Notes: generated by a model not told the origin, from the sequence alone. DNA of 64,000 nucleotides from Desulfarculaceae bacterium (GCA_037443445.1 JBBIOJ010000007.1:5383-69382); one strand, 5' to 3'; positions 1,338-63,340 are shown, counted from the stretch's first letter. Numbers and translations: made by a program.

Positions 1338-1369
1338 GGACTCAGGCCCAGAGACCTGAGTCCTTTTTT
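1338..1369. terminator. Rho-independent terminator hairpin (GGACTCAGG...CCTGAGTCC followed by TTTTTT); likely bidirectional for the tRNA cluster and the convergent oxidoreductase gene
   Basis: Perfect 9-bp stem followed by a T-run. It lies between the tRNA-Lys 3' end and the stop codon of the minus-strand gene 1368..2828. Confidence 0.6.
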
Positions 1370-2828
1370 ACTCTGAAGCTGCTTCACAGGCTCTGCCTTT
1401 CAGCTGAAACAGGAATTTGAGGCCTTTTTTCACCGTATCGGAATACAGCTTCCGGGCGAAGATGTTCCCCACGGTTCTCTTGTTTATCTCCCCCAGGGTG
1501 GGATAGGGATGAACGGCAGAGGCCACAGTGGATAGCCTTACCCCTCCGTTTATGATGGCCACCCATTCATTGAGCAACTCCCCGGCGCTTGGCCCGAGGA
1601 TCTGAATGCCGAGTGGCCTGCCTCTGGTGCCCAGGATCATTTTTATTTTCCCTATCCTCTCCCCCTCCGCGAGGCTTCTGTCATTATCTTGGAAGGCTTC
1701 TACCCATGTTGTGTAATCCAGCCCGGCCTCTTGGGCCATCTTTTCGTTCATTCCCATACCGGCTAGCTCTGGGTGTGTGAAAGTGCACCACGGCATCCAC
1801 CTGTAGTTTGCTTTTCGAGGGAGGTGCAGAACGGCATTGCTGACCACTATGCTTCCCTCATACCCGGCCACGTGGGTGAACTGATACTCCCCGGTGACAT
1901 CCCCGGCAGCATAGATGTGTCTGTGTCCTGTTCTGAGCCGATCCTCCACTTCCAAACCCTTCTTGTCAAACTTCAAGTCGATTCCCTCCAACCCCAACCC
2001 ACCCAGGTTGGCTTCCCGTCCCATGGCAACAAAGATGGTCTCTGCCCTGAGGCTTTTCAGATTCCCATCCCCGGTTCTCAAGGTTACCTCTTTCTCACTC
2101 CCAAGGTCTCTGACGCTCACCACAGAGGCATTGAGGTGGAACACGACTCCTTCCTCGGCAAGGAGGTTCATGAGAATGTCCGCCATGTCCTTGTCCTCCC
2201 TGCTCAGGATCTGGTTGCTGCGCTGGATCACAAAAACTTGAGTGCCTAGACGCTGGAACGCCTGGGCCATCTCTATGGCGATGGGTCCGGCACCGAGCAG
2301 GATCATGGATTGGGGTAAACGGTCCAGGGAGAAGATCTCCTTGTTGGTGACATAAGGAGTCTGATCCAACCCTGGTATGGCCGGAATTGCCGGGGAGGAA
2401 CCCGTGGCAATCACCCAGTTCTTGGCAGAAAAAGAAGTTCCGTTGAGCCGGATGGTATGCTCATCCGTGAATGCTGGCAGGCCAAATTCCACCTGGACTC
2501 CGAGCCTGCAGAACCGCTCTGGGGAATCGTGTTTTTGTATGGTGGCAATGACTTCCCGGATCCTTCTGACCACCTCCTTGTAGTCCACAGGCGGCAGTTC
2601 CACCGATGGAAGCCCGAATTTACCTGCGTTTTTCATCAGATGGCGTACATGGGCCGTCTTGATGAGAGTCTTGCTGGGAACACAACCAAAGTGGAGGCAA
2701 TCCCCTCCCAGTTCATTCTCCTTCTCAACCAGGAGAGTCTTGGCTCCCAGCTGGGCTGCACCCGCCGCCACAGTCAGGCCCGCGGCTCCACCCCCGAGAA
2801 TGCCGATATCGAAATCATGATTCGCCAT
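1368..2828 (-). CDS. Class I pyridine nucleotide-disulfide oxidoreductase (dihydrolipoamide dehydrogenase / mercuric reductase-like core)
   Basis: N-terminal FAD-binding GxGxxG motif (GILGGGAAG). Redox-active disulfide motif GGDCLHFGCVPSK. A dimerisation domain is present. There is no C-terminal vicinal Cys-Cys pair and no NmerA domain, so it is not a MerA. Confidence 0.8.
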   Translation of the reverse strand: MANHDFDIGILGGGAAGLTVAAGAAQLGAKTLLVEKENELGGDCLHFGCVPSKTLIKTAHVRHLMKNAGKFGLPSVELPPVDYKEVVRRIREVIATIQKHDSPERFCRLGVQVEFGLPAFTDEHTIRLNGTSFSAKNWVIATGSSPAIPAIPGLDQTPYVTNKEIFSLDRLPQSMILLGAGPIAIEMAQAFQRLGTQVFVIQRSNQILSREDKDMADILMNLLAEEGVVFHLNASVVSVRDLGSEKEVTLRTGDGNLKSLRAETIFVAMGREANLGGLGLEGIDLKFDKKGLEVEDRLRTGHRHIYAAGDVTGEYQFTHVAGYEGSIVVSNAVLHLPRKANYRWMPWCTFTHPELAGMGMNEKMAQEAGLDYTTWVEAFQDNDRSLAEGERIGKIKMILGTRGRPLGIQILGPSAGELLNEWVAIINGGVRLSTVASAVHPYPTLGEINKRTVGNIFARKLYSDTVKKGLKFLFQLKGRACEAASE

Positions 2829-2851
2829 AACGTCCTCCTAGTCATAAATAT

Positions 2852-3583
2852 TCACACCTTTGAAATTTCAGATGCCTTCCTTATTCTCACCTTGTACAGG
2901 GTCATCAGCTTCTTCACCAGGAGGGGAAACAGGCCCAAGATAGCGAAGGAGACGATAAGGCTAGGGGAAAGGATCCCGGAGAGGGAATCTATCTTGGCGA
3001 GCTCTTTCCCCGCGTTGACATAAATGGCTGTCCCCGGCAGCATTCCCACCTGGGAGACCCAGTAGAAAGTGAGCAATGGAACCTTGGTAAGCCCCATTAC
3101 CAGATTTATCATCCAGAACGGGAACAGAGGGATGAGGCGCAGGGTGAAGAGGTAGAAGGGGCCTTCCCTGGCGATTCCCTCGTTGATGGTGGTGAGGCGG
3201 TCGCCGAATTTGCCCTGAACCCAGTCCCTCAGCAAGAACCTGGAGACGAAGCAAGCCAGGGTCGCCCCTATGGTGCTTGCGAAAGAGACCACCAGAACGC
3301 CTACCCAAAAACCGAAAAGGGCCCCCCCGGCCAGGGTGAGGATGGTCGCCCCTGGCAGGGAGAGGGAAGTGGAGAGGATATAGATCACCATGTAAACGGC
3401 GATCACAAGGAGGCGATTCTCCGCGTAGAGGCTTGCGAACTTGGCCTCTGAGGCCTTGAGGTAGGAGAGGGATAAATACTGTTCCAGATCAAAGATATTG
3501 AAAGCTGCGATTAAGCCCAGGACCGCCCCGAGAATCAGGATCTTGTGGATAACCCTCTTGCTCTTGTGCTTTTCATTTTTCAT
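2852..3583 (-). CDS. DedA/TVP38 (SNARE-associated) family membrane protein
   Basis: Multi-TM protein of 243 aa with the DedA-like core (LPGATILTLAGGALFG). It sits immediately downstream of the oxidoreductase, a recurrent pairing. Confidence 0.7.
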   Translation of the reverse strand: MKNEKHKSKRVIHKILILGAVLGLIAAFNIFDLEQYLSLSYLKASEAKFASLYAENRLLVIAVYMVIYILSTSLSLPGATILTLAGGALFGFWVGVLVVSFASTIGATLACFVSRFLLRDWVQGKFGDRLTTINEGIAREGPFYLFTLRLIPLFPFWMINLVMGLTKVPLLTFYWVSQVGMLPGTAIYVNAGKELAKIDSLSGILSPSLIVSFAILGLFPLLVKKLMTLYKVRIRKASEISKV

Positions 3584-5627: not shown

Positions 5628-7703
5628 CTATACCTTGCAGAGCCCATGGATAGACTCGCACGTGTTCGAGTAAAGCTTCTCGATCCAGTCGCCCCTTTGA
5701 ATATAAGGCATGGAGGGAGATCCGCATTCAGGGCAGATCCGGCTTCTGGCCATGCGACGCAGAAAACGGTGGGTTGTGGCGATGAATGCCGCATGGCTCC
5801 AGGCAAGAGGAGACACTGAGAGGGGCTCACCCGTCAATGGGTGGAGCTGTTCGGCCAGCACCCCGGAGGGGAGTGCGTGGGAGGCCACCCACCGAAGGAT
5901 TTCGTGCGCTTGGGTGACCTCCTCGTTGCTCTCACCCCGCTCCAGCAAGTAATCCGCCAGCCAAAGTGTACAGATGATCCAAGGGTTGCCGGGAACGTTG
6001 CTGCTTTGCCGGTGATAGGGATCGTTCTCATAGCGGGCCATTCCTCCGACACTCTGCACCCATAGCCTCTCCCGAAGGGTGGACATGCTGGACACTATGC
6101 GGGGGTCATCGGCGGAGTACATGCCAAAGGCAAACAATCCCCAAAGGCTTGAGTCACAGGTGGCATCGGTCTGCAGCTTGCCTTCTGGATTGGGATAAAG
6201 CATTCGGCAAAACCGATTCATGTCTTCCATCCAGAGGTGGGATGAAGCGGCATCCCGAACCTCTGCTGCCACGACTCGATACCGGTCCGCTTCCTCTTCC
6301 TCCCCAAAGACCTTGCAGAAGAGGGAGGCAGCCGTAAGCCCACCGAAAACCGCCCCCACCGTGAAAGCGGAGATACCGTAGCGTTCCTCCCACAGGTCGT
6401 AGGACGGGGCCGGAAGGCCGGTTCGTGGGTCCCTGAAGCGGCACATGAACTCCGCGGCCTTCTTGACCAGGTGGGCATACAAAGGCTTGACGAATTCGAT
6501 ATCCCGAAACATAACGAAATGGTGCCAAAGGGCCCATATGACGAGAGCCGTGGAGTCCTCCTGTATGGGCAACCGGGGCCGGCCCTCGTAAGACCAGGGG
6601 TGCCAGGAGGAGGCCAGCGTCCCGTCGGGGTTGTACTTGTGCAAGAGGTAACCCTCCGGCTCCAATCGATCAGCTATGAACTGAAAGAAGTTCCTGGACA
6701 GGCCGGGATAACCAGCCAGGTCCAGGGAATAGGCTGCCAACGCCCCGTCCCGGGGCCAGATATAGGAATAGGTGTCCCTGTTGAACTGAATCACATCCGA
6801 GTCATTGCCGGCCAGGATGCCCCCCTGCCAGTCGATCTGGATCCTCAGGACGAGCAAGCTGCGTTTGTACAGCCCGGCAACCTCCTCTGAGAGCTCAGAG
6901 AGCGGCGGCGACTCCTTTTTTACCCACAGCCCCCAGTAATCGGCCGTCCGCTGGGTCAACTTCCTGGGGTGCCTGTGTTTGACCAACGCATCCAGCCTTC
7001 GGACCTGTTCCCAGCTTTCTCCTGCTGTGATCCAGAAGTAGCATTTTTCCTCGGCCCCGGCCTGCAGGTTCATCCGCAGGGCAATGACCGAATCCACCGA
7101 TCCCTGGGCAATGGGGTTGCCTGAGAGCCGTCCGTCTTCCGCATCTTTGAAGGTCCCCATCCTGCCGCCTGTTGCGGTCTGCCCCGTAGCGAATTGATCC
7201 AAGCCTTCTCCGCCCTCCACCCAGCCGTTGGCCAAGAAATACCTGGCCCCCTTGTAATGGACAACGCCGCCGCTGGTGGGGTCAAAGGCCGCAGTGTCCC
7301 CCACTCTATTGCCGGATATTCCGAGATCCAGATGGAAAAACAGACGAATCTCCCGCGACCTGTCACTGAGATTCTCCACCGAGATCTCCCTGACATAGAT
7401 GTCTTCGTGGAAATCCACTGCATCGCTGCAGCTGAGGCGAAGCATCAGATCGGGCGAGAACAGTGTCACCTCCGTGATCAGGGTGTCGGCTGCATAGCGA
7501 AGCTCTGGATGCCATCCAGGGCCTACCCAGGAAAATCTGCCCTCCACCCACACCCCGAGCCTGGAGACATTGCCTCCTCCATGGTTCTCCTGCCCCACGT
7601 GCGGGTAATAGATGTCCCGGATGCAATAGTCCTTGTCGAAACAGATCAGGAGTTTTCCATTGCCCACAGGGATATCTCTCGGCATGGCCGTCACCTCCAT
7701 CAT
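5628..7703 (-). CDS. Glycoside hydrolase family 15 (glucoamylase / glucodextranase / trehalase-like)
   Basis: 691 aa with an (alpha/alpha)6 barrel and the GH15 signatures (IWPRDGA, LWEERYG). Has a C-terminal Cys cluster. Confidence 0.75.
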   Translation of the reverse strand: MMEVTAMPRDIPVGNGKLLICFDKDYCIRDIYYPHVGQENHGGGNVSRLGVWVEGRFSWVGPGWHPELRYAADTLITEVTLFSPDLMLRLSCSDAVDFHEDIYVREISVENLSDRSREIRLFFHLDLGISGNRVGDTAAFDPTSGGVVHYKGARYFLANGWVEGGEGLDQFATGQTATGGRMGTFKDAEDGRLSGNPIAQGSVDSVIALRMNLQAGAEEKCYFWITAGESWEQVRRLDALVKHRHPRKLTQRTADYWGLWVKKESPPLSELSEEVAGLYKRSLLVLRIQIDWQGGILAGNDSDVIQFNRDTYSYIWPRDGALAAYSLDLAGYPGLSRNFFQFIADRLEPEGYLLHKYNPDGTLASSWHPWSYEGRPRLPIQEDSTALVIWALWHHFVMFRDIEFVKPLYAHLVKKAAEFMCRFRDPRTGLPAPSYDLWEERYGISAFTVGAVFGGLTAASLFCKVFGEEEEADRYRVVAAEVRDAASSHLWMEDMNRFCRMLYPNPEGKLQTDATCDSSLWGLFAFGMYSADDPRIVSSMSTLRERLWVQSVGGMARYENDPYHRQSSNVPGNPWIICTLWLADYLLERGESNEEVTQAHEILRWVASHALPSGVLAEQLHPLTGEPLSVSPLAWSHAAFIATTHRFLRRMARSRICPECGSPSMPYIQRGDWIEKLYSNTCESIHGLCKV

Positions 7704-8882: not shown

Positions 8883-8939
8883 TTTTTAACCCCCCTTCTT
8901 GCTCGGGGCAAAGGGTCACTGCCTGCTTCTCAATTGGCT

Positions 8940-9308
8940 CTAACTCGGCTCATTCTGCCCCGCAGCCTCCTCCATTCCACAGAGCCTCGGAAGAACACGG
9001 CTGCGGATAGCCGCTTCCTTCTCTGAGCTCCCCTCCCTCCCCAGGGCATCCAGGCTTCTCCACAACCTGATCTTTGCCTCGGTCCAGTTAATCTCAGGGG
9101 CCACTTGATGCAGATAATGCTCGATCTCGGCCTCTGTGGCCCTTCGATGTTTGCTCGAATGGAGAACATCACCGATGTTCCACTCGCCCTCTGGTCAGGC
9201 GGGGAAGAACACAAGGTTCCCGCCCTCCAAGAGAAGAATACTGTACTGCTCATCGTATCTCACGACCTTGAGAAAAGTCTCCGGCAGCTCAAAATCCTTT
9301 GCAGACAT
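8940..9308 (-). CDS. Candidate small selenoprotein or readthrough ORF: a 37-aa ORF with a strong RBS, an in-frame TGA at about 9195-9197, then 84 further in-frame codons with no internal start (about 122 aa in total); function unknown
   Basis: AGGAGGAGGTG sits 7 nt upstream of the ATG. The in-frame TGA is followed 14 nt later by the hairpin GAACAUC-GGU-GAUGUUC. The downstream in-frame segment (PEGEWNIGDVLHSSKHRRATEAEIEHYLHQVAPEINWTEAKIRLW...) has protein-like composition but no start codon of its own. Coordinates are +/-2. Confidence 0.25.
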
Positions 9309-9459
9309 CCCAACACCTCCTCCTATTTTGAGGCCTTCGGGCCTCACGCCAGGCGTTCTCGGCTAATGATTCCGAATCGGGCCATTCGATGTCATCCTCA
9401 ATAAATTAGTCAGCAAAGGCCAGCCCAGATTACAATCCAACTTTTTTCCCCTTTGCCTC

Positions 9460-9490
9460 TTGACCCCGTACTATGGTACGGGCTCTAGGC
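9460..9490 (+). promoter_or_regulatory. MerR-type operator/promoter: -35 TTGACC, a 19-20 bp spacer containing the dyad CCCGTAC-TATG-GTACGGG, then a -10-like TAGGCT
   Basis: Almost identical to the Tn21/Tn501 merO dyad (TCCGTAC-ATGA-GTACGGA), which is embedded in a long-spacer promoter. Located about 60 nt upstream of the merT-like gene. Confidence 0.6.
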
Positions 9491-9525
9491 TGAATTAGAA
9501 AGCACACGGTCAAGACGCCAGGTCA

Positions 9526-9966
9526 TTGACCAGCCGGGGAAGGGGGTTGATACCCATGAAGAACCACCTTGGTAAGATAGGTCTGGCAGGGGCGATTTTT
9601 GCCGCGCTGTGCTGTATCGGAACCCCGGCGCTGCTCACGATCCTAACATCCATCGGGGCAGGATTCCTGATCAACGATTCGGTCTTGCTGCCTTTGCTGG
9701 TGTTTTTCCTGACGCTCAACATCATTGGATTGCGCCTAACTTATAGAATCCATAGAAACCTCTGGCCCATGATACTTGGGGGACTGGCCTCGGCTGCCAT
9801 TGTGGTATTCATTTACGGCTGGTTCTTCAGGCCCGGCCTTTACCTGGGCCTGGGGGCCCTGGTAGCCAATTCGGTTTGGAACGCGGTTATGAAGAAGGGC
9901 TGCGAAACCAAGAGACCGCATCAAGTCCCGGGGCTTTTCCAGAGTTGTGAACGGGGGTCGCGATGA
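9526..9966 (+). CDS. merT: MerT-like mercuric/heavy-metal ion transport membrane protein
   Basis: Vicinal Cys pair in TM1 (AALCCIGTPALL), matching the MerT CC motif. A second TM segment follows, then a cytoplasmic Cys pair (GCETKRP...SC). The track start is TTG at 9526; an internal ATG at 9556 (MKNHLGKIGL) is more likely the real start. Confidence 0.55.
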   Translation: MTSRGRGLIPMKNHLGKIGLAGAIFAALCCIGTPALLTILTSIGAGFLINDSVLLPLLVFFLTLNIIGLRLTYRIHRNLWPMILGGLASAAIVVFIYGWFFRPGLYLGLGALVANSVWNAVMKKGCETKRPHQVPGLFQSCERGSR

Positions 9967-10154
9967 AGGAAACCATCACCGTGGAAGGCAATAGGCATTA
10001 TGAATGTGGCGTGTGTGGCTTCGCGTACGAGGAGAAGGAGTGGGCCGAGAAATGCGAGGCGTGGTGCTCGGCTCACGGAAGCTGCAACATGGACATTACT
10101 GAGCATGCAGTGCAGAGGAAGGTTCAGCATTCCCCACAGGAGGAACGATCCTGA
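9963..10154 (+). CDS. Small cysteine-rich protein (5 Cys in 63 aa; CGVCG ... C-x3-C-x5-C), candidate metal-binding protein
   Basis: Its start overlaps the merT-like stop (ATGA), indicating translational coupling within the mer-like operon. No recognisable family. Confidence 0.4.
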   Translation: MKETITVEGNRHYECGVCGFAYEEKEWAEKCEAWCSAHGSCNMDITEHAVQRKVQHSPQEERS

Positions 10155-10300
10155 CCAAAGGAAAATCCTCGGGCCAAAGCCTCGGTCGGTGCGCTTCACC
10201 GTGTGGGTGAACCGGGTGGTGAGCCGTCCCAAAGGAAGCTGAAAGGAGGGCTTGACTCTGCACTGTGCTCCAGGGTTTAAACTGCAAACAGAGGTGAGAC

Positions 10301-10714
10301 ATGGAGGGTCTGAGCATAGGCCAGCTGGCCAGGAAGTCCGGGGTGAATGTGGAGACCATACGCTACTACGAGAGACGGGGACTACTTCCGGCGCCGCCCC
10401 GTGGACGCTCCGGTTACCGGCATTACTCTCCGAGAGACATCCAAAGGGTACGGTTCATCAAGCGGGCTCAGAGGCTCGGATTCACACTGAAGGAGGTATC
10501 AGAGCTCTTGCAGCTGAAGGTGGATCCCCAGACCACTTGTGCTGATGTCAGAAGACGGGCTGAGATCAAGATGGCGGAAATAGACCAAAGGATTCTGGAG
10601 CTTCACGCAATGAGGCAAGCCCTTTCGAAGCTGGCAACCTCATGCCCAGGATCCGGTCCGAGTGCCGAGTGCCCGATACTGGATGTCTTGGACTCAAACG
10701 AGGAAAGGAGGTGA
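10301..10714 (+). CDS. merR: MerR-family Hg(II)-responsive transcriptional regulator
   Basis: N-terminal MerR HTH (IGQLARKSGVNVETIRYYERRGLL). Cysteines at positions 80, 115 and 124 are spaced exactly as the Hg-binding Cys82/Cys117/Cys126 of Tn501 MerR. Confidence 0.8.
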   Translation: MEGLSIGQLARKSGVNVETIRYYERRGLLPAPPRGRSGYRHYSPRDIQRVRFIKRAQRLGFTLKEVSELLQLKVDPQTTCADVRRRAEIKMAEIDQRILELHAMRQALSKLATSCPGSGPSAECPILDVLDSNEERR

Positions 10715-10719
10715 GAAAG

Positions 10720-10998
10720 ATGAATGCCAAGAGGAGGATAGAGATCTTCAGTGCAGGATGCCCCGTATGCAAGGAGGCGGTCGAGATGGTCAATGGAGCC
10801 GCCTGTCCTTCCTGCGAGGTGAGCGTGCTGGATATGCACGACTCCCAGGTCGCCAAGCGCGCGAAGGATTTGGGCATCTGTTCCGTTCCCGCGGTCCTGG
10901 TTGACGGGAAGCTAGCCGAGTGCTGCGCGGGACGCGGCCCTGATGAAGGGGCCCTCAGGGCAGCCGGGTTGGGAAGACCGATCCAGGAACACTTTTAG
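10720..10998 (+). CDS. Thioredoxin/glutaredoxin-like small redox protein with CPVC and a vicinal CC pair
   Basis: ATG at 10720 preceded by GGAGGTG. The 92-aa product carries CPVCKEA, CPSCEV and ECCAG. The track ORF 10642..10998 is the same frame with a spurious N-terminal extension. Confidence 0.5.
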   Translation: MNAKRRIEIFSAGCPVCKEAVEMVNGAACPSCEVSVLDMHDSQVAKRAKDLGICSVPAVLVDGKLAECCAGRGPDEGALRAAGLGRPIQEHF

Positions 10999-11168
10999 CA
11001 GAGGTCTAACTCTAGCGACAAGGCTCCGGGCAGGATCATCCCGCCAAGGGCCTTGTCGAGAAAGAGTCTTGGGAGCAAATGCACATTCAGCACCCGCGGA
11101 GCCGGACGGGAACATACAGTGCTTCCCGGTTCCTGCGAACTGCGGGCCATCATGGTGGCCCCGCGCCG

Positions 11169-11666
11169 TCAGCCCTTCTTCCTGCTCTTGTAGAACTTGA
11201 CCAGGCCCAGCACGTCGCGAGCCACCAGACGACCCACGGGCCCCGTGCTGTAACAGGCCACCTCCACCGTGCCCTCAGGTCGAATGAGAAAGCCGGTGGC
11301 ATGAATGATCTTGCGCTCCCTGTCATAGTAGGCCCCTGTGACCCTGGAGACCTCCTCAGCATCCATACCGTATGCCACGGGAAAGGTAATGCCCAGCCTC
11401 TCGACGGTCTGCTTGGCCTTCTCCAAAGGATCCACCGATGCGGCCACAATAGAGATCTGCTCAGCCTCGAGCTCCCCACCGAGGGCTTGGAAGTCAGCCA
11501 ACTGCTGACTGCAGAAAGGTCACCAGTGACCGCGGTAAAGGAGCACTACACCGTAGCCCGGCCCCAAATCTCGGGGCAGGACAAGCTCTGCACCCTCGAC
11601 AGTGCGCAGGCGAAGTTCGGGGAACCGGTCGTTTGCATCAAGAATTGTCTTGTTCATCCTGGCCAT
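11169..11666 (-). CDS. Peroxiredoxin-like redoxin (AhpC/TSA / PRX-like1 type) selenoprotein: in-frame TGA (11520-11522) at the peroxidatic Cys position, giving the motif W-U-P-F-C
   Basis: Track ORFs 11520..11771 and 11169..11501 share one frame and are separated only by TGA. Joined they read LLYRGHW-U-PFCSQQL, a canonical FYRGxWCPxC redoxin motif with U in place of C. The hairpin AGUCAGC-AGUUG-GCUGACU begins 9 nt after the UGA. Start is MARMNKTIL, preceded by GGGAGG. Confidence 0.6.
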
Positions 11667-11767
11667 CTCGACCTCCCAATGATATCCCATGAATCTTGTG
11701 GGTAGAACCCTTTTCCGAAGAGCTCCTTGGGCACGCCTGGGAAGGCTTCGAGGTGAGCCCAAGGTCC

Positions 11768-12448
11768 TCAAACCTGGATCCGGTACATCTGGTGATTCAG
11801 GCAGAACTCCCTTTGACCTTTGCGGTAATCCTCGAAGGCGGCCCTTACAATGGAAAACGCCTCAGAGCAGTCCTTGGCCAGGAATATCAGCTTCACATCT
11901 TCCTCATCCAGCAACCCGTCTCGAATGGGCCGATTCCTGATCCAGTCTACCAACTCTGCCCACATCTCTCCCAATAGGATCAACGGAATATGACACACAT
12001 GCCTTACCTGCATCAACTGCCAAGTGTAAAAGAACTCCAGAAGGGTTCCAATACCACCTGGAGCGATGACCGCCGCGTTGCTCAGCACCATGAAGTGATC
12101 AAGCCTTTCTGAGAAACGGGAGAAGTCTTTTTTCAAGTCCAGATGAAAGGCGTCCTTCTGTTCCTTAGGAAGACGGATGTTCAACCCAATGGAGTGAAGA
12201 GGCGCAGGGCCCCTTCCCGCGTGGTGTCCTTTGCTGGCCGCGTCCATCAGGCCGGGGCCCCCACCCGTCACAATGTCCATCCCCTCCGCGGCCAGAAGTC
12301 GCGAGAGGTTGTACACCATCCGGTATACCGGGTCACCCTCTTTGAGGCGCGCGGATCCAAAAATGGCGACTCTGAAGTGAGACCGTGCAATTTCATTTTC
12401 GATCTCCGCGGATACACCGGGTGCCCCTTTTTGATCTTGCCCGCTCAT
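11768..12448 (-). CDS. LOG family protein (cytokinin riboside 5'-monophosphate phosphoribohydrolase-like; TIGR00730)
   Basis: Motifs GGGPGLMDA and PGGIGTLLE. The ATG at 12446-12448 is preceded by AAGGAGGG. The track start at 12487 is an upstream TTG in the same frame. Confidence 0.7.
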   Translation of the reverse strand: MSGQDQKGAPGVSAEIENEIARSHFRVAIFGSARLKEGDPVYRMVYNLSRLLAAEGMDIVTGGGPGLMDAASKGHHAGRGPAPLHSIGLNIRLPKEQKDAFHLDLKKDFSRFSERLDHFMVLSNAAVIAPGGIGTLLEFFYTWQLMQVRHVCHIPLILLGEMWAELVDWIRNRPIRDGLLDEEDVKLIFLAKDCSEAFSIVRAAFEDYRKGQREFCLNHQMYRIQV

Positions 12449-12490
12449 GCTGCCCTCCTTGCCCTTGCCCCATGGGCGCGATTCCAAAGC

Positions 12491-13399
12491 TCATGGAGCT
12501 GTGAAGACCTCAGTGTCCGGGTGAAATGCCTGCCACGCAAACCAGTAGCTGTAGATGACCGGAATCTCCCCGCCACGATCATCGAAGATCCTTAGGAGCT
12601 CTCCCCCAGGGGAGATCTCGATCTGCACCTCCACTCCCCCGACTTCATCACGAAGCACTCCCGCCTTCTTTCTCAGGAGGGAGATCGGATAGGCCCTGGT
12701 GTGACCTTGGATCTCCAGGCCCAGGACCATCTCCTTGGGAGAAAGGTCGGTCCTCACGTCCCCGACGAGAAACCAGATCCCAAGACCCCTGTAATAGCCC
12801 TCGTAAGGGTCCACGGAGTAATCCCTTCGGTGGCCCGTATCCGTGGAGAGCACGAGCGTCTGGGGCTTCTTTTTCAGCCACGTCCTCCAGGTCGTTCTGA
12901 GCGAGGGAATCCTCCGCAAGGACTTGCCGGCGAGGGGGCCGGCAATGGCCTTCTCCATCATCTGGGACCAGAGGCTTTCGTTCTGGTGGTCGTAAAGAAG
13001 CACGTTGCTCTTGTAAAGCAATCCTGACACCCCGAATGTATGTGTCACGCCCTCCAAAGCCCGGGAGTAGACCACCCCCGATTGTGTGAGCGGTCAGAAG
13101 GTCACGACCACCGGAGCGCCGCCCACGGTGTCGTTGACGACCTCGTGCCAGTTGAGGATCTTGATGGGGTAAGCCTTTGCTTCCTCTCCCACCGCTACCC
13201 CTATGACCGTATCGTCGGGCTTGAGAAATAGTGCTTCCTGTGGACTTACGAACTTGGGTTCCAGAATCGCCGGGATCCCGTCCTTGGGAGGTCCTCCAGA
13301 GAGAATCTCCCCCTTCGGAACGATGGCGTTATCCAGCCGGAAGCCCGTGACCGCAACCCACAACCCAAAAGCGGTCAGGAATTGACCGATTCTCTTCAT
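12491..13399 (-). CDS. DUF3179 family secreted protein with an in-frame TGA at 13094-13096 (candidate selenoprotein; alternatively a nonsense pseudogene)
   Basis: Track ORFs 13094..13399 (signal peptide plus N-terminal half ...GGAPVVVTF) and 12491..13075 (C-terminal half, ...YWFAWQAFHP) are in the same frame and separated by a single TGA. The junction reads VVVTF-U-PLTQSG. The hairpin CGGGGGU-GGUCU-ACUCCCG begins 13 nt after the TGA. Confidence 0.45.
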
Positions 13400-13604
13400 G
13401 GCTTCTGCCCTGCGGATCCCTTCTCTTTAGTCCGACCAAGTCCGAAGATCTTACGCCAGTGGCAAAAGACATCATCACCTTGAGCGTTACACTCGATCCG
13501 CTGGAGGAAGGCTCCCGGCAATTCTCCCCTTGACTTACCCTTTTCTTTGTATATTGATGTATATCATCATTTAGCAAAGTAAAGAAGATAGGGGGAGGTA
13601 TCCC

Positions 13605-14822
13605 ATGGCCCTACTGGAGACGTTTCCCGAGCCCATGCGCTCGCACCTTGCCAAGCTGCCATGTCCCTCTTTCGAGACACATCCCTGGGTCCAGGGGCCG
13701 GCTCTTTCCAAGCGCCGTGTGGCCCTGATTTCCACAGCCGGCCTCCACAGGCGCAAGAACCGGCCCTTCGAGGGGATGACCGGAGAGTATCGTGTGATAC
13801 CGAAAGAGTGCGAAGCCAACGACCTGATCATGACGCATGTATCAACCAACTTCGACAGGACAGGGTTTCAACAGGACTGGAACGTGGTGTTTCCTCTGGA
13901 CCGACTCAGGGAACTGGCCGAGGAAGGTATCATCGGGAGCGTGGCCGATTATCATTACTCCTTCATGGGAGCTGCGGATCCTTGGGAAATGGAGCCGTGG
14001 GCCCGAAACCTGGCTGGAGTGCTCAAGGGTGGCCGGGTGGATGCTGCTCTGCTTGTCCCGGTCTGACCCTTCTGCACGCGCGCCGTGGGCGCGCTGGCCC
14101 ATTACCTTGAGGCAGAAGGGATTCCCACCACACAGATCAGCCTCATCAGAGAGCACACAGAGATCATCCGCCCTCCCAGGGCTCTCTGGGTTCCCTTCGA
14201 GTTGGGACGGCCTCTGGGCATTCCAGGCGACGCTGCTTTCCAAGGGCGGGTGCTGCGGGCGGCGCTTGAACTTCTGGAGTCGCAGGAAGGGCCCGTGCTG
14301 GAGGACTTCCCAGAAGATGCTCCCCAAGGGAAAGCCGGCCTTGAGGAAACCGCCCAGGCATGGGCGTGTCCGGTCAGTTTCTCAGCCGCGCCCGAAAAAG
14401 CAGGGGATGAAGGGGAACTCCTGCCCGCACTGCGGCGAGAGATCATGGAGCTGCGGCCCTGGTACGATCTCAGCCTGGAGCGCAGGAAGCGCACCTCGGT
14501 GGCATATTTCCCTCCCGAGGCTGCTTCCCAGTTCTTCGGTTCCGTCTTGCTGGGGGAAGCTCATCATATCCCTGAGAACTTGGCATCACCCGCAGTGGCC
14601 CTCAGGCTCGCAGCCCAGGATCTGAAGGCATTCTATTTCGAGTCCGTGACCGCTCGGCCGGGCTTCGCCACCCCGGGAGCCTCGGAGTTCAACAGGTGGT
14701 TCTGGCAGCAGACTGCTGCAGGCCGCCTCCTGAAGTCGGTGAGGAGGATCTGCGCAGACTCCCAGGATCAGGAGATGAGAGACGCCGCAGTGCGGTTCTT
14801 GATCCCGCTGGACCAGGCTTAG
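13605..14822 (+). CDS. Glycine/sarcosine/betaine/D-proline reductase component B family (GrdB/PrdB-like, PF07355) selenoprotein, with in-frame TGA at 14064-14066 (motif VPV-U-PFC)
   Basis: Track ORFs 13605..14066 and 14085..14822 are in one frame, separated by TGA. The sequence across the junction is continuous and family-like (LLVPV-U-PFCTRAVGALAHYLEAEGIPT). A 7-bp GC hairpin (GCGCGCC-GUG-GGCGCGC) begins exactly 11 nt after the UGA. RBS GGGGGAGG precedes the ATG. Assignment to PF07355 is from recalled motifs, not a search. Confidence 0.5.
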
Positions 14823-14865: not shown

Positions 14866-15594
14866 GTGGAAAGATTGTTGAACGTGAGAGAGACCGCTGA
14901 GTTCCTGAATGTCTCGGAGATGACGGTGCGCAGGTGGACCAATGCGGGCTTGTTGCGCTGCTACCGCATCGGGCCCAAGCGAGAAAGGCGTTTCAAGCTC
15001 CGGGAATTGGAGGAATACCTTGCCGGCGCGGCCGCGTGGCAGAAGGTGTGTACCGTGCCACTGGGTCTCGCAGACTCGGAAGTCCCTGACGGAGCGCATC
15101 TGAGCCATCTTTATCATGATGGCCAGGAGGCTCTTGGTGTGGGCGTCCCGTATGTAATGGAGGGTCTTCGAGGCGGGGAAACCGTGCTGGTGGTGGCACA
15201 TGAGGCGGGTACCAGGGCCCTCCTGGAAGCCCTGGAGGGACAAGGTTTGGACATCCAGGCCCTGAGGGACAGGGGTAAGTTGCACCTGAGTGGCGGAATG
15301 CCAACTCCAGAGGAACAAGCAGCATACATAGCATCGGTGGCTTCATCCTCCACCGGCCGCTTCAGGTTGCTGGGGGACATGAATTGGGCCAAGGACAGGA
15401 GATGGAGCGCTGAGAACCTAAGAGGCCTTGAAGACATGACCAATAGAGGCACGTCTTGTCCTGGGAGGCTCATCCTTTGTCAATATTCCCTTGCGATATG
15501 CTCAGGACAAGAGGCCATGATGGTGATGGAAACTCACAATTACGCCATTTACAAAGGAAGAGTCCAGGAGAGCCCGTACTTTGGCTGCACCTGA
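14866..15594 (+). CDS. Transcriptional regulator: N-terminal excisionase/MerR-like HTH plus a C-terminal MEDS-like (DcmR-type) sensory domain
   Basis: HTH sequence LNVRETAEFLNVSEMTVRRWTNAGLL. The C-terminal roughly 170 aa resemble a MEDS domain (assignment is weak). Confidence 0.45.
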   Translation: MERLLNVRETAEFLNVSEMTVRRWTNAGLLRCYRIGPKRERRFKLRELEEYLAGAAAWQKVCTVPLGLADSEVPDGAHLSHLYHDGQEALGVGVPYVMEGLRGGETVLVVAHEAGTRALLEALEGQGLDIQALRDRGKLHLSGGMPTPEEQAAYIASVASSSTGRFRLLGDMNWAKDRRWSAENLRGLEDMTNRGTSCPGRLILCQYSLAICSGQEAMMVMETHNYAIYKGRVQESPYFGCT

Positions 15595-27736: not shown

Positions 27737-28029
27737 TCCCCTTCCGGAACCATGTCAATGCACTTGACCGGGCATTCGTGGGCGCAAATTCCGCAACCCT
27801 TGCAATAGTAAAGATTGGGCAGGAAATAGCCCTGTTCATTTCTCTCTATGGCCGCATCCGGGCAGAAGATGTAGCATTGCGCGCACTTGATGCAGCGTTC
27901 CGTGTCCACCTTGGGATGCCCCACTGTGCGCCAATCCCCCGTCTTGTATTTCCTGGCATTGCCTGGCTCCACTATGACGCAGCCGGGTTCCAGCTCTATC
28001 CAGGTAATCTCAGTTATAGGTTTTGCCAT
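27733..28029 (-). CDS. porD: 2-oxoacid:ferredoxin oxidoreductase delta subunit (2x[4Fe-4S] ferredoxin)
   Basis: Two CxxCxxCxxxCP motifs (CIKCAQCYIFCP, CKGCGICAHECP). Confidence 0.85.
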   Translation of the reverse strand: MAKPITEITWIELEPGCVIVEPGNARKYKTGDWRTVGHPKVDTERCIKCAQCYIFCPDAAIERNEQGYFLPNLYYCKGCGICAHECPVKCIDMVPEGE

Positions 28030-28086
28030 TTTAAGTACACCTCCGTATGGGACCGGCCGCGAGGCGGTTTGTGCCGGTCTGCCGGG

Positions 28087-28632
28087 TCAAACCCTAAGGG
28101 AATCGTAAGCCCTTTTCATGGCCTCCAGGTTCCGGTCTGCCAGCCGCCCGAAGCGCTCCCGCACAGGAGCCTCCAAGCTCTCCAGTTCCACCACACCGGT
28201 AGCTTTCAAGAGGGCCCCTATCATGGTGGTGTTGGTTATGGGTCGTCCCAGCACCTCAGCGGCTATGGCATGGGCATCCACCGAGTAAAATCGCTGAGCA
28301 GGCTTCAATCTGGACAGGAAGCCCTTGGGCTCCCCTGACACATTGGCCACCACCGCCCCGTCTTCTTTAAGGCCCTCCTCCACCGGGACCAGCTCCAGGA
28401 GAGACTGGTCCAGAACCACCACCACGTCAGGCTCGTACACCTTGGATCTGATTCGGATCGGCTCCTGGGATATCCTGGCAAAGGCCATGACCGGGGCTCC
28501 CCTCCTCTCAGGGCCGAAGCTAGGAAAGGCCTGGGCGTATTTCCCCTGGGCAATGGCTGCAAGAGCCAAGAGCTCGGCAGTGGTCACAGCACCCTGCCCA
28601 CCCCGACCATGAATGCGAAACTCCTTCATCAT
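28087..28632 (-). CDS. porG: 2-oxoacid:ferredoxin oxidoreductase gamma subunit
   Basis: Start is MMKEFRIHGRGGQGAVTTAELLA, the hallmark POR gamma N-terminus, preceded by GGAGGAAG. The track start at 28854 is a spurious upstream extension. Confidence 0.8.
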   Translation of the reverse strand: MMKEFRIHGRGGQGAVTTAELLALAAIAQGKYAQAFPSFGPERRGAPVMAFARISQEPIRIRSKVYEPDVVVVLDQSLLELVPVEEGLKEDGAVVANVSGEPKGFLSRLKPAQRFYSVDAHAIAAEVLGRPITNTTMIGALLKATGVVELESLEAPVRERFGRLADRNLEAMKRAYDSLRV

Positions 28633-29213
28633 TCTTCCTCCATCCAATGTCGCGAATCGGCCCAGCCCAGGTCCCTGGGGCGCTCGGTAAAGCAGGGGCT
28701 TTCCCCGCGAGGAGGCCATCTGCGAGAACGGCTCCACCCCATAGGCCACACCTGGGGAATGGCCAGGGTTGCCTGGGAGAAAGCCTGCAGGCTTCTGGAT
28801 GGAGCCGGATTCAGTCGCCAGTGGCCTTGGGGCGCACATCCAGAGTGCACACACTCTATGTTCCTGCGATGAAAAAACTGGGGTTCGGTGATGAGGGCCT
28901 GAAACTCCCCCGGGGCGATCTCCTCCATCTCGAGGGTCACCGAGTCACCGAACCACGGAGGGCCTTCCATGCTGAAGCGGACGCTCCAGTGAGGTCCGTA
29001 CCAGTCTCTGAAGATCTCCACCCGGGCTCGCTCCACTTCACCCTTGCCCCCTGGGGCCAGAATCCAGTCCTCCGAAAGCCATTCCAAGAAAGCCGAGGTG
29101 GCCTGGCTAACCAGCTCCTGCACTGTCTCAGGTTCTTGTCCCAAGGAACCGCTAAAGCCCAGCTCCAGCACCGCAGCAGCCCCTCCGTCCTCACAGCAAC
29201 CGCAGCCCATCAA
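28629..29213 (-). CDS. Hypothetical protein with an N-terminal Cys cluster (MMGCGCCEDGG), first gene of the por operon
   Basis: Its stop overlaps the porG start (ATGA). The N-terminal 130 aa have protein-like composition; the C-terminal tail is Arg/Trp-rich and may be partly artefactual. Confidence 0.3.
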   Translation of the reverse strand: MMGCGCCEDGGAAAVLELGFSGSLGQEPETVQELVSQATSAFLEWLSEDWILAPGGKGEVERARVEIFRDWYGPHWSVRFSMEGPPWFGDSVTLEMEEIAPGEFQALITEPQFFHRRNIECVHSGCAPQGHWRLNPAPSRSLQAFSQATLAIPQVWPMGWSRSRRWPPRGESPCFTERPRDLGWADSRHWMEEE

Positions 29214-33283: not shown

Positions 33284-33312
33284 GTCCCCGGTGATTGAAC
33301 AGGCAGTGGTTC

Positions 33313-33981
33313 TCAGCGGGCTATCATGGCCCGCATCACGTCCCCTGCGTTCTCTGCGTGGTTGCTTATGTCACCCATGTACTCCACCAGGCGGATCAGG
33401 TGAAAAACTGTTATGGCATCCACCGAGGGCAGGGAGAAAATGTCGCTCTTGAGCTTGCGCTCTATGGTGTCGCTCTCAGACTCTTTGAGCCTCAAAGCCT
33501 TTATCACTTCCTTGACGTGCTTGCGATCCTTGTCAGAGTAAGAGCGCAAATACACCATGGCCCTTCCCACCATCAAGGGAAGCTGGCTGATGGAATCCAC
33601 AGCCTTGTCCACAAGAAGCAACAGGTCATCCACCAGCATGTCGGGCACATCGGTGTTTCTGTAGGAGAGCCAGTGAAGGGAGTCCTGCACCGCGTCCAGG
33701 GCCTTGTCCTGCTCCCTCAGGTACAGCAGAAACTGGAACTTGTCCACGGGCATCATGAGCCCCCGGGGAAGGTGACCCCTGATGTTGCGCTTCAGGCGGT
33801 CTGCCTCGTGCTCCATTCGGGTCACGTTCATGTGGAAAGCGTCGAACTCGGTGCAAGAGCCATCCAGGTAGCAGATGACAGCCTTGCGGAAAAGCCCACC
33901 CCCTTCCTGCACTATCTCAGCATGCTTGAGGAGCTTCACAAAGGGGGACTCCCGAAACAGGTGCACGAAAGGCGATCGCAT
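33313..33981 (-). CDS. DUF47 / PhoU-like phosphate transport regulator (TIGR00153)
   Basis: Helical protein of about 220 aa with the conserved partner context (adjacent PiT transporter). Confidence 0.65.
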   Translation of the reverse strand: MRSPFVHLFRESPFVKLLKHAEIVQEGGGLFRKAVICYLDGSCTEFDAFHMNVTRMEHEADRLKRNIRGHLPRGLMMPVDKFQFLLYLREQDKALDAVQDSLHWLSYRNTDVPDMLVDDLLLLVDKAVDSISQLPLMVGRAMVYLRSYSDKDRKHVKEVIKALRLKESESDTIERKLKSDIFSLPSVDAITVFHLIRLVEYMGDISNHAENAGDVMRAMIAR

Positions 33982-34003
33982 AGCTCCTCTTTTTTTTCTC
34001 CTT

Positions 34004-39637: not shown

Positions 39638-39855
39638 GCAGGGCCAAAAAAGTTCCTGACAAGTCCCTTGACAGGGAAGAGGAAGTTGTGAAATCTACTG
39701 TAGACAATAGACAGAGCGGGCGCTTTTGTCTTGGTGCCCGGCCTTTTTAAGAGACTCGCAAGGAAAGGGAGCCTTGATCGCCGGGGCCAAGCCCCATGCC
39801 CGGGCCTGGAAGGCCCCTTTTGGGGCGAGTCCACACAAAGCCAGGAGGGAAGGCC

Positions 39856-40935: not shown

Positions 40936-41049
40936 GAAAGCCTGGCTGGTGCTCTTGCGGCCCGACCTGGACCGACAAAGGCAGCAAAAGACGGAAAACG
41001 GGAGGGGGAAACCCCTCCCATGCTGTTGTGGGATCGCCTCGGGGCCTCT

Positions 41050-45224: not shown

Positions 45225-45365
45225 AGGGGTTGAACCGAGCCTGCTCAGCAAGTGCCTAAGGCAACAACGCTGGAGGGGGCAGGTGGGCTTGGGGTAGGCC
45301 CAAGGCCATCCAGGTCACAAACCCGGGGAGCAGGACTCCCACTCTCTTGCAAAAGGAGGACGGCC

Positions 45366-63252: not shown

Positions 63253-63340
63253 TGGTGCCTGGGGCGGGAATCGAACCCGCACGGGGACAAGCCCCAAGGG
63301 ATTTTAAGTCCCTTGCGTCTGCCTATTTCGCCACCCAGGC
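63253..63340 (-). tRNA. tRNA-Leu (anticodon TAA), class II with long variable arm
   Basis: Acceptor stem GCCTGGG/CCCAGGC. D-arm GGCGAAATAGGCAGACGC (Leu-like). Anticodon loop CTTAAAA. Variable arm GGGGCTTGTCCCC. T-arm GCGGGTTCGATTCCCGC. CCA encoded. Confidence 0.8.

What the first reader, a model, noticed from the sequence alone, without database searches (positions are those of the whole stretch)
8940..14822. Four in-frame TGA codons with SECIS-like hairpins within 6 kb: a selenoprotein-rich island
Four consecutive genes each contain a single in-frame TGA. In each, protein-like sequence continues on both sides and no start codon follows the TGA. A stable hairpin with a G/U-containing apical loop starts 9, 11, 13 and 14 nt after the TGA. 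The genes are the small ORF (8940..9308), a peroxiredoxin-like redoxin, a DUF3179 protein and a GrdB/PrdB-like protein. This is the geometry of bacterial SECIS elements, as in E. coli fdhF. Finding it four times in neighbouring, functionally unrelated genes argues for an organism with an expanded selenoproteome that is densely represented in this locus. The alternative is four independent nonsense mutations. Two of the four (DUF3179 and the small ORF) are not families I recognise as known selenoproteins.
Basis: partly seen in the sequence, partly recalled or inferred. Interest (0 to 1): 0.85.

Follow-up and report, generated by a model that had tools for sequence, protein, structure and literature searches.

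The report
Four selenoprotein genes, one apparently undescribed
Four neighbouring genes really do use the stop codon TGA to encode selenocysteine; three belong to known selenoprotein families, and the fourth is a small, widely conserved protein that is in no family database searched and has no cysteine-containing relatives.

Summary
There are four in-frame TGAs at 9195-9197(-), 11520-11522(-), 13094-13096(-) and 14064-14066(+). Each is followed by a hairpin that fits the published bacterial SECIS model: the loop starts 16-21 nt after UGA and carries a G in one of its first two positions. About 4% of window positions fit this by chance, so four of four is about 3e-6.

TGA is otherwise the commonest ordinary stop here (22 of 35 genes). 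The TGAs and hairpins are kept in related contigs.

Three genes belong to listed selenoprotein families:
- Prx-like thiol:disulfide oxidoreductase (UxxC).
- DUF3179 (UxxT; homologues have Cys at that column).
- A distant GrdB/PrdB-superfamily protein (UxxC) that is not a true PrdB.

The 122-aa ORF is the real finding. Relatives occur in 58 other loci (Desulfobacterota, Methylomirabilota, Acidobacteriota). TGA sits at codon 38 in 52 of the 59 loci and is never replaced by a Cys codon. In 40 distinct sequences the four degenerate codons of the hairpin stem never vary, while all 45 other conserved degenerate codons do. The family matches nothing in Pfam or NCBIfam.

In other genomes it sits next to DUF3179-Sec, ArsS, a MerA-like reductase, DedA and Prx-Sec. 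Sec machinery could not be tested: it is not in the window.

The parts
8940..9308 (-). g1: 122-aa small selenoprotein gene, motif FFPA-U-PEGEWNIGDV, strong RBS AGGAGGAGG upstream
   Evidence: Translation. RBS. 58 homologous loci, 52 of 59 with TGA at codon 38. No Pfam or NCBIfam match.
9195..9197 (-). g1 Sec codon (UGA, codon 38)
   Evidence: Invariant TGA in 40 distinct full-length sequences.
9156..9185 (-). g1 bSECIS hairpin (core 9163-9181: GGAACAUC-GGU-GAUGUUCU)
   Evidence: Stem codons AAC, ATC, GAT and GTT are invariant in 40 sequences, while the loop codon GGN uses all four bases.
11169..11666 (-). g2: Prx-like thiol:disulfide oxidoreductase selenoprotein (GHW-U-PFC)
   Evidence: PF00578, 62 bits. 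TGA kept in L001, L002, L022, L023 and L042.
11520..11522 (-). g2 Sec codon
11492..11510 (-). g2 bSECIS hairpin AGUCAGC-AGUUG-GCUGACU
   Evidence: The 38 nt after the TGA are identical in L002, although the sequence beyond them diverges.
12491..13399 (-). g3: DUF3179 selenoprotein (VTF-U-PLT), with a hydrophobic N-terminal segment (read by eye; no signal-peptide tool run)
   Evidence: PF11376, 292 bits. Homologues have CPLT or CPLC at the same place. TGA kept in L001, L002, L006, L038 and L042.
13094..13096 (-). g3 Sec codon
13061..13081 (-). g3 bSECIS hairpin UCGGGGGU-GGUCU-ACUCCCGG
   Evidence: A G.U pair becomes A-U in L002 and L006.
13605..14822 (+). g4: 405-aa GrdB/PrdB-superfamily selenoprotein (VPV-U-PFC) with a C-terminal extension of about 180 aa
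   Evidence: PF07355, 33.7 bits. TIGR04483, 95.9 bits, below the 300 cut-off. Full-length TGA-containing orthologues in L001, L005, L013, L037 and L062.
14064..14066 (+). g4 Sec codon
14078..14094 (+). g4 bSECIS hairpin GCGCGCC-GUG-GGCGCGC
   Evidence: Only wobble-compatible stem changes in L013 and L005.
1368..3583 (-). MerA-like FAD disulfide oxidoreductase (1368-2828) and DedA/VTT membrane protein (2852-3583). The same families sit next to g1 homologues elsewhere.
   Evidence: VTT domain assigned from L001 and L022. tblastn co-occurrence.
9556..10998 (+). Divergent metal-type cluster between g1 and g2: MerC/MerF-like transporter, 63-aa Cys-rich ORF, MerR regulator, Thioredoxin_3 (CPVC)
14866..15594 (+). 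HTH_17 + MEDS regulator immediately after g4. The pair is conserved in L001 and L013.

Best explanation
The region holds four genuine selenoprotein genes. In each, a UGA is read as selenocysteine. By analogy with the E. coli fdhF mechanism, the hairpin 9-12 nt downstream (a bacterial SECIS inside the coding sequence) recruits SelB carrying Sec-tRNA(Sec) to the ribosome.

g2 is a Prx-like UxxC oxidoreductase. g3 is a DUF3179 protein with UxxT. g4 is a distant GrdB/PrdB-superfamily protein with UxxC. All three are members of selenoprotein families already on record.

g1 belongs to a conserved family of about 107 aa, (L/I)(I/V)FFPA-U-PxGEWNIGDVHHSxRHRRAT. This family is effectively invisible in protein databases, because gene callers stop at the UGA. 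It is found with Sec, or rarely Arg, Trp or Ser, and never with Cys. It matches no model in Pfam or NCBIfam.

The four genes are part of a wider, recurrent neighbourhood. In the window this spans about 1.4-15.6 kb and includes a MerA-like reductase, DedA, an ECF sigma factor and DUF547 genes; ArsS joins it only in other genomes. The neighbourhood suggests a shared role in handling thiophilic metals or metalloids (Hg, As, Se, Te).

Shown by computation: the recoding signals and their conservation. Inferred: actual Sec insertion and the function.
For: Signals in the window. In-frame TGAs with open frames on both sides. All four hairpins meet the published bSECIS constraints: 3-9 nt loop, G in the first two loop positions, 16-37 nt spacing, free energy at or below -7.5 kcal/mol. 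g1 meets the energy limit only with its lower stem; its core hairpin is -7.3 (model read; measured). The chance rate is 4.2% per position.

TGA is a normal stop here: 22 of 35 genes end in TGA.

Orthologous contigs:
- L001 (about 96% nt identity) keeps the TGA and hairpin in g2, g3 and g4. L002 (g3 product 77% identical) keeps them in g2 and g3.
- More distant TGA-containing orthologues show only pair-compatible stem changes.

Family assignments:
- DUF3179 homologues carry Cys where g3 has UGA.
- Pfam and NCBIfam hits.
- The reviews list Prx-like UxxC, DUF3179 UxxC/T and GrdB/PrdB UxxC as selenoprotein families.

g1 family:
- 11 genome loci and 43 metagenome loci, plus further contigs fetched from protein hits.
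- 52 of 59 loci have TGA at codon 38, and none has TGT or TGC.
- Amino acids after the UGA are conserved while their synonymous sites vary, so that part is translated.
- 4 of 4 degenerate stem codons are frozen, against 0 of 45 other conserved degenerate codons. The loop wobble base uses A, C, G and T. My Fisher estimate from those counts is about 5e-6.
- Database proteins with W at the site include at least one mistranslated TGA: one is verified as TGA, one is a true TGG, and the rest were not checked.
- No Cys form was found among 5.8 billion proteins or in an exhaustive HMMER scan of 1.84 billion representatives.

Neighbourhood:
- DUF3179-Sec lies directly upstream of g1 in L006, L022, L023, L025, L038 and L042.
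- L022 carries the run ArsS, DUF3179-U, g1-U, MerA-like, DedA, Prx-U.
- PrdB-like-U occurs in L005, L013, L037 and L062.
Against: - No tRNA-Sec, selA, selB or selD lies in the 64-kb window or in the fetched loci (tRNA scan only). The source genome could not be located.
- There are no experimental data.
- g1 fails the usual Cys/Sec-pair criterion.
- In the closest relative (L001) the part of g1 holding the start, the UGA and the hairpin is deleted. Other in-frame deletion or decayed variants exist. The gene is therefore dispensable, and the window copy could be on its way out: it has a 15-aa C-terminal extension and Leu where most members have His49.
- The g1 stem never covaries among TGA-bearing members. 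The RNA evidence is frozen synonymous sites rather than compensatory pairs.
- The functional inference rests only on gene neighbourhood.
- I could not read Haft & Tolstoy 2025 or Deng et al. 2026, so 'undescribed' is not proven.
Confidence: 0.85

Rival explanations
1. The four TGAs are nonsense mutations, pseudogenes or sequencing errors, and the hairpins are coincidental.
For: Gene callers split all four genes. GTG or TTG codons lie a few codons after three of the TGAs.
Against: The same TGA sits at the same codon in independent assemblies and in distant relatives. Coding conservation continues across the TGA. The hairpins are conserved. Four of four hairpins is about 3e-6 by chance.
Confidence: 0.02
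2. TGA is a reassigned sense codon (Trp or Gly, as in genetic codes 4 and 25), or is read through without selenocysteine.
For: Some database entries translate the homologous codon as W.
Against: 22 of 35 well-supported genes in the window end in TGA, and each of the four genes has only one internal TGA. The W entries checked at the DNA level are TGA on short contigs called with the wrong code. In DUF3179 homologues the site aligns with a Cys of a CxxC/CxxT motif, and g2 and g4 carry the UxxC motif listed for their families.
Confidence: 0.02
3. g1 only: translation ends at the UGA and gives a 37-aa peptide. The hairpin is a regulatory or terminator-like element, and the downstream conservation belongs to something else.
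For: There is no Cys homologue. The hairpin is also kept in the CGA, CGG and TGG variants that no longer need a SECIS. The structure model is poor.
Against: The 69 codons after the UGA are conserved at the amino-acid level with free synonymous variation and no start codon of their own. The Arg and Trp variants read straight through in the same frame. The hairpin has bSECIS geometry and no U-tract.
Confidence: 0.05
4. The g1 family is real, but the copy in this window is a decaying, non-functional remnant.
For: The nearest relative, L001, has lost about 280 bp covering the RBS, start, UGA and hairpin. The window copy has an atypical 15-aa tail, and Leu replaces the usual His at position 49. Deletion variants recur elsewhere.
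Against: The window copy is intact: strong RBS, ATG, UGA, a perfect consensus hairpin and an open frame to TAG. It is 53-64% identical to family members over residues 1-106, with all invariant residues kept.
Confidence: 0.12

Closest known systems
Bacterial SelB/SECIS-dependent Sec insertion, as in E. coli fdhF (bSECIS consensus model of Zhang & Gladyshev)
   Same: In-frame UGA. A hairpin inside the coding sequence starts about 9-12 nt downstream. The apical loop is small, with G then G or U in its first positions. UGA-to-loop spacing is 16-21 nt.
   Different: The loops are very short (3-5 nt). No bulged U like that of fdhF was seen. The cognate SelB and tRNA-Sec were not observed.
Prx-like thiol:disulfide oxidoreductase selenoproteins (PF00578, UxxC; Kryukov & Gladyshev 2004, as listed in PMC13188914)
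   Same: g2 has the AhpC-TSA domain and a W-U-P-F-C motif.
   Different: Nothing notable; it is an ordinary member.
DUF3179 selenoproteins (PF11376, UxxC/T; first reported from the Olavius algarvensis symbiont metagenome)
   Same: g3 gives a full-length PF11376 match with U-P-L-T. Homologues carry CPLT or CPLC.
   Different: Here and in several other genomes it is linked to the g1 family, often as the gene immediately upstream. That link is not mentioned in the papers I could read.
GrdB / PrdB (glycine and D-proline reductase selenoprotein B)
   Same: g4 shares the fold region and a UxxC at the equivalent position (PrdB model positions 26-220 align to residues 33-226).
   Different: It scores far below the PrdB and GrdB equivalog cut-offs. 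It has an extra C-terminal region of about 180 aa. No PrdA or GrdA type partner is next to it; it is paired with an HTH-MEDS regulator instead.
Multi-selenoprotein operons described by Haft (the SAO system and the Tso operon)
   Same: Several unrelated selenoprotein genes are co-located with metal or organometal-type genes.
   Different: The gene content differs. No NCBIfam model for Sao or Tso proteins matches g1. The primary paper could not be read.

Membership tests
Bacterial selenoprotein gene (general) | In-frame UGA conserved at the same codon in orthologues | tested here: met
   g2-g4. g1: 52 of 59 loci.
Bacterial selenoprotein gene (general) | bSECIS hairpin meeting the consensus model (loop 3-9 nt, G in the first two loop positions, 16-37 nt from UGA, at or below -7.5 kcal/mol) | tested here: met
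   Model read. The g1 core is -7.3 and reaches -12.5 with its lower stem.
Bacterial selenoprotein gene (general) | Cys-containing homologues with Cys aligned to the UGA | tested here: inconclusive
   Met for g3. For g2 and g4 it rests on the family motif UxxC/CxxC. Not met for g1: no Cys form in any search.
Bacterial selenoprotein gene (general) | selA, selB, selD and tRNA-Sec present in the genome | not testable with these tools
   None is in the window. The source contig is not in the collections.
Bacterial selenoprotein gene (general) | Selenium actually incorporated (75Se labelling or mass spectrometry) | not testable with these tools
   Requires an experiment.
Prx-like thiol:disulfide oxidoreductase selenoprotein (g2) | PF00578 domain above the gathering score, with U in a UxxC motif | tested here: met
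   62.2 bits against a cut-off of 26. Motif W-U-P-F-C.
DUF3179 selenoprotein (g3) | PF11376 domain, with U in a UxxC/T motif at the conserved Cys column | tested here: met
   291.7 bits against a cut-off of 27. U-P-L-T aligns with CPLT or CPLC in homologues.
D-proline reductase PrdB (g4) | TIGR04483 score above the curated cut-off | tested here: not met
   95.9 bits against a cut-off of 300.
D-proline reductase PrdB (g4) | Partner genes of the reductase complex (PrdA etc.) nearby | tested here: not met
   The neighbours are DUF3179 and an HTH-MEDS regulator in the window, and the same regulator in L001 and L013.
GrdB/PrdB superfamily (g4) | PF07355 above the gathering score, with UxxC at the homologous position | tested here: met
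   33.7 bits against a cut-off of 22, motif U-P-F-C. TIGR01918 is 48.7, below its cut-off of 65.45.
Any described selenoprotein family (g1) | Match to a Pfam or NCBIfam model, including NCBI's selenoprotein-specific NF04xxxx models | tested here: not met
   No hit at E<=1 for any of 11 members. No PDB relative. The motif is not found in full-text search.
mer (mercury resistance) operon (context genes) | True MerA and MerT/MerP/MerC equivalogs | tested here: not met
   MerA model 362 bits, below the 454 cut-off. MerC and MerF models are below their cut-offs. Only MerR-family and MerC Pfam domains are present.

The most novel reading that the evidence does not exclude
g1 founds a previously unrecognised, obligately Sec-dependent small-protein family. 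It was missed because every major discovery pipeline requires Cys homologues. It works together with DUF3179-Sec, Prx-Sec, a MerA-like reductase, DedA and (in other genomes) ArsS as a dedicated multi-selenoprotein pathway for handling a metalloid or thiophilic metal.
Probability: 0.4. Interest if true: 0.7.

Novelty: new member of a known kind. Interest (0 to 1): 0.55.

Why it matters
More than 110 prokaryotic selenoprotein families are catalogued. [quoted passage not shown] A family that occurs with Sec and never with Cys is therefore a blind spot of those methods.

It is also a natural case for asking what selenium does that sulfur cannot. Its extremely rigid SECIS gives a clean handle for reporter experiments.

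The recurrent linkage with DUF3179, which has no known function, gives that large family a testable context. The other recurrent neighbours are ArsS, a MerA-like reductase, DedA and Prx-Sec.

The rest of the finding, three known selenoprotein families close together in a probably deltaproteobacterial genome, is ordinary.

Tried and rejected
- Rfam, at gathering and at permissive thresholds, found no SECIS family and only chance hits.
- Looking up the source contig by exact protein failed twice. The organism and its Sec machinery therefore stay unknown. The best synteny is with Desulfobacterota MAGs (L005, L013), which is inference only.
- The first word-indexed protein search with g1 found nothing. 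This was misleading: DNA-level searches then found the family.
The C-terminal 84 aa were used instead and returned only family fragments.
- A profile search of PDB gave one insignificant hit to a designed TIM barrel.
- The AlphaFold2 model from the 11-sequence alignment was poor (pLDDT 57), so no fold search was run.
- A window-wide scan for further TGA-interrupted genes gave candidates at 32527-34032, 27778-28872 and 39796-41553. On translation these were adjacent genes or antisense frames.
- No tRNA-Sec was found in 33 related loci.
- Haft & Tolstoy 2025 and Deng et al. 2026 are not held in the paper library.
- Homologues of ArsS, ExtM-like cytochrome, YyaL, CrtC-like protein and ATP sulfurylase, which neighbour g1 elsewhere, are absent from the window.

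Full report
**Observation**

| Gene | Coordinates | Sec codon |
|---|---|---|
| g1 | 8940-9308 (-) | 9195-9197 |
| g2 | 11169-11666 (-) | 11520-11522 |
| g3 | 12491-13399 (-) | 13094-13096 |
| g4 | 13605-14822 (+) | 14064-14066 |

Coordinates were checked. Each TGA is followed by a compact hairpin:

| Gene | Hairpin | Free energy (kcal/mol) | Loop starts after UGA |
|---|---|---|---|
| g1 | GGAACAUC-GGU-GAUGUUCU | -7.3 core, -12.5 with lower stem | 21 nt |
| g2 | AGUCAGC-AGUUG-GCUGACU | -9.5 | 16 nt |
| g3 | UCGGGGGU-GGUCU-ACUCCCGG | -10.4 | 20 nt |
| g4 | GCGCGCC-GUG-GGCGCGC | -12.9 | 18 nt |

These satisfy the published bacterial SECIS model, read. That model requires a loop of 3-9 nt, a G in the first two loop positions, 16-37 nt between UGA and the loop, and a free energy at or below -7.5 kcal/mol. 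My simple implementation of the rule is met at 4.2% of all positions of the window on both strands. Four hits at four sites is therefore about 3e-6 by chance.

- The genes are not consecutive. Five other genes are interspersed.
- GTG or TTG codons do follow the TGAs.
- The stems begin about 9-12 nt after UGA.

**The TGAs are recoding sites, not errors or a changed code**

TGA is the commonest ordinary stop in this window: 22 of 35 well-supported genes end in it. That excludes a reassigned code.

A protein search with g3 returned a C-terminal fragment 95% identical to it, on a 68-kb Logan contig. Fetching that contig (L001) gave a syntenic locus about 96% identical in DNA. In L001, g2, g3 and g4 are all split at the same TGA, with near-identical hairpins.

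A second contig (L002), whose g3 product is 77% identical in protein, keeps the TGAs of g2 and g3. In g2 the 38 nt after the TGA are identical to the window, although the sequence beyond them diverges. In g3 a G.U pair of the stem has become A-U.

Further TGA-bearing orthologues were found in unrelated contigs: g3 in L006, L038 and L042; g2 in L022, L023 and L042; g4 in L005, L013, L037 and L062. They show only pair-compatible stem changes.

**Family assignment of g2, g3 and g4**

- g2 is an AhpC/TSA-fold protein with W-U-P-F-C.
- g3 is a full-length DUF3179 protein with U-P-L-T (292 bits). Its full-length homologues carry CPLT or CPLC at that column.
- g4 matches the GRDB Pfam family. It aligns to the PrdB model across the Sec position with U-P-F-C, but it scores far below the PrdB and GrdB equivalog cut-offs (95.9 against 300). 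It has an extra C-terminal region of about 180 aa. Its conserved neighbour is an HTH-MEDS regulator, not PrdA.

Two reviews (PMC9312934 and PMC13188914) list all three as known selenoprotein families: Prx-like (UxxC), DUF3179 (UxxC/T) and GrdB/PrdB (UxxC). g4 is best described as a distant member of the GrdB/PrdB superfamily, not a proline reductase subunit.

**g1, the small ORF**

g1 has a strong RBS (AGGAGGAGG) and an ATG. It has no Pfam or NCBIfam match, and the first protein search found nothing. In the closest relative, L001, about 280 bp covering the RBS, start, TGA and hairpin are missing. At that point g1 looked doubtful.

A DNA-level search changed the picture.
- Scanning 185,579 species genomes found 11 loci with 51-64% identity across residues 1-106. 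They come from Desulfobacterota-type MAGs, three Methylomirabilota and one Vicinamibacterales. Every one has TGA at codon 38.
- A scan of JGI metagenomes added 43 loci.

Over all 59 loci, including the window and contigs fetched from protein hits, the codon at that position is as follows:

| Codon | Loci | Distinct 45-nt contexts |
|---|---|---|
| TGA | 52 | 37 |
| CGG | 3 | 1 |
| CGA | 2 | 1 |
| TGG | 3 | 1 |
| TGT or TGC (Cys) | 0 | 0 |

A profile search of 5.8 billion proteins found 11 full-length entries, nine with W and two with R at the site. One W entry checked at the DNA level is TGA called with the wrong genetic code. One is a true TGG, and the R entries are CGG and CGA. The other seven W entries were not checked at the DNA level. 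An exhaustive HMMER scan with the C-terminal 84 aa found only fragments of the same family.

The strongest evidence is at synonymous sites.
- In 40 distinct TGA-bearing sequences, all 45 other conserved degenerate codons vary synonymously, including those after the UGA. The downstream part is therefore translated and under protein-level selection.
- The four degenerate codons that form the hairpin stem never vary: AAC, ATC, GAT and GTT.
- The Gly codon in the loop uses GGA, GGC, GGG and GGT.
- Four of four against zero of 45 gives about 5e-6 by Fisher's test, which I calculated from the counts.
- One non-TGA variant (L016) shows a compensatory A-U to C-G change in the stem.

Is the family already described?
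- None of 11 members hits any NCBIfam (June 2026) or Pfam model, even at E<=1.
- No PDB relative exists.
- The motif does not occur in the searchable literature.
- It matches none of the 119 families and motifs tabulated in the 2026 review.
- The discovery pipelines I could read (the SECIS-independent Cys/Sec-pair searches, Haft's method and the homology filter of deep-Sep) require Cys homologues. That would explain a miss.
- I could not read Haft & Tolstoy 2025 or Deng et al. 2026. 'Undescribed' is therefore likely but not certain.

**Context and likely function**

The four genes belong to a larger set that recurs around g1 homologues.
- DUF3179-Sec lies immediately upstream of g1 on the same strand, 27 nt away, in L006, L022, L023, L025, L038 and L042.
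- A MerA-like FAD disulfide reductase, a DedA/VTT membrane protein and Prx-Sec lie downstream.
- The arsenosugar radical-SAM (seleno)protein ArsS (TIGR04167, 419 bits) occurs in seven loci.
- PrdB-like-Sec occurs in L005, L013, L037 and L062.
- An ECF sigma factor occurs in eleven loci.
- A multihaem cytochrome lies directly upstream of g1 in five loci. It resembles ExtM of a selenite/tellurite reduction operon, at a score below that model's cut-off.
- L022 carries the tight run ArsS, DUF3179-U, g1-U, MerA-like, DedA, Prx-U.

The window holds most of this set between 1368 and 15594, but not ArsS or the ExtM-like cytochrome. It also holds a divergent cluster of MerR, a MerC/F-like transporter, Thioredoxin_3 and a Cys-rich ORF.

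g1 has no obvious N-terminal hydrophobic segment (read by eye; no signal-peptide tool run). Next to the Sec it has a conserved His/Arg-rich segment, DVHHSxRHRRAT. From this I infer, with low confidence, a role in binding or reducing a thiophilic metal or a chalcogen/pnictogen oxyanion. The AlphaFold2 model was too poor to use (pLDDT 57).

**What could not be tested**

No tRNA-Sec, selA, selB or selD is in the window. No tRNA-Sec is in 33 related loci. The source genome could not be retrieved. Actual Sec insertion is therefore inferred from the cis signals and their conservation.

**Verdict**

Three of the four genes are ordinary members of known selenoprotein families. Dense selenoproteomes are already documented in such lineages: 46 to 63 genes per genome.

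The added value is g1. It is a conserved, Sec-but-never-Cys small-protein family with an unusually rigid SECIS. It matches no model in Pfam or NCBIfam and is linked to DUF3179-Sec.

Novelty: a new member of a known kind. Interest: moderate (0.55).

Noticed in passing
L001:5897-9583 and L002:1-2622, against window 13400-13604: The close relatives carry an insertion between the PrdB-like and DUF3179 genes that the window lacks. It holds an aldehyde dehydrogenase and a TPP-dependent enzyme; L001 also has two small ORFs there.
   Followed up: no
L001:13504-13895, against window 8883-9556: In the nearest relative, about 280 bp of g1 are deleted (RBS, start, 37 codons, UGA, hairpin). The 3' 50 codons remain at about 96% identity. 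Separate in-frame deletion variants that lack the Sec core (DRDY|FRQ) exist as P0134 and P0135.
   Followed up: partly
L014, L015 and L041 (CGG); L016 and L017 (CGA); L019-L021 (TGG); L065:2850-3300 (TCA plus frameshift): Non-Sec variants of the g1 family use Arg, Trp or Ser codons. All but CGG are one mutation away from TGA. None uses Cys, although TGT and TGC are equally close. The Arg and Trp variants are flanked by a different radical SAM gene and an ATP sulfurylase gene.
   Followed up: partly
L003, Sec codons at 4571 and 7329: One Deltaproteobacteria MAG contig carries two paralogues of the g1 family, both with TGA.
   Followed up: no
L022:227-9590: A compact same-strand run: glucokinase, phosphoglucose isomerase, ArsS, DUF3179-U, g1-U, MerA-like reductase, DedA, Prx-U, MFS transporter. 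The sugar-metabolism genes next to ArsS echo the GH15 glycoside hydrolase beside g1 in the window (5628-7703).
   Followed up: partly
L028, L032, L033, L035, L056 (gene ending about 139-204 nt upstream of g1's Sec codon, so nearly abutting g1): A multihaem c-type cytochrome lies directly upstream of g1 homologues. It resembles ExtM of a selenite/tellurite reduction operon, with 258 bits, below the cut-off of 800.
   Followed up: no
L034 (coordinates not recorded): Another Prx-like gene with an in-frame TGA (RGGW-U-PYC) and a downstream hairpin lies on a contig that also carries a g1 homologue.
   Followed up: no
window 9556-10998: A MerR-family regulator, a MerC/MerF-like transporter, a 63-aa Cys-rich ORF and a Thioredoxin_3 (CPVC) protein form a divergent cluster between g1 and g2. 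PF13192, the Thioredoxin_3 family, has Sec-containing subfamilies elsewhere; here it is the Cys form.
   Followed up: partly
window 45252-49762: An isochorismatase-family gene sits next to a xanthine-dehydrogenase-type molybdenum hydroxylase cluster. The 2022 review mentions isochorismatase-like genes in connection with an uncharacterised SelD-linked selenium trait.
   Followed up: no
window 58772-59836: A DDE_3 transposase with HTH domains (an IS element). A tRNA cluster (His, Arg, Lys) lies at 499-1327 and tRNA-Leu at 63253-63340.
   Followed up: no
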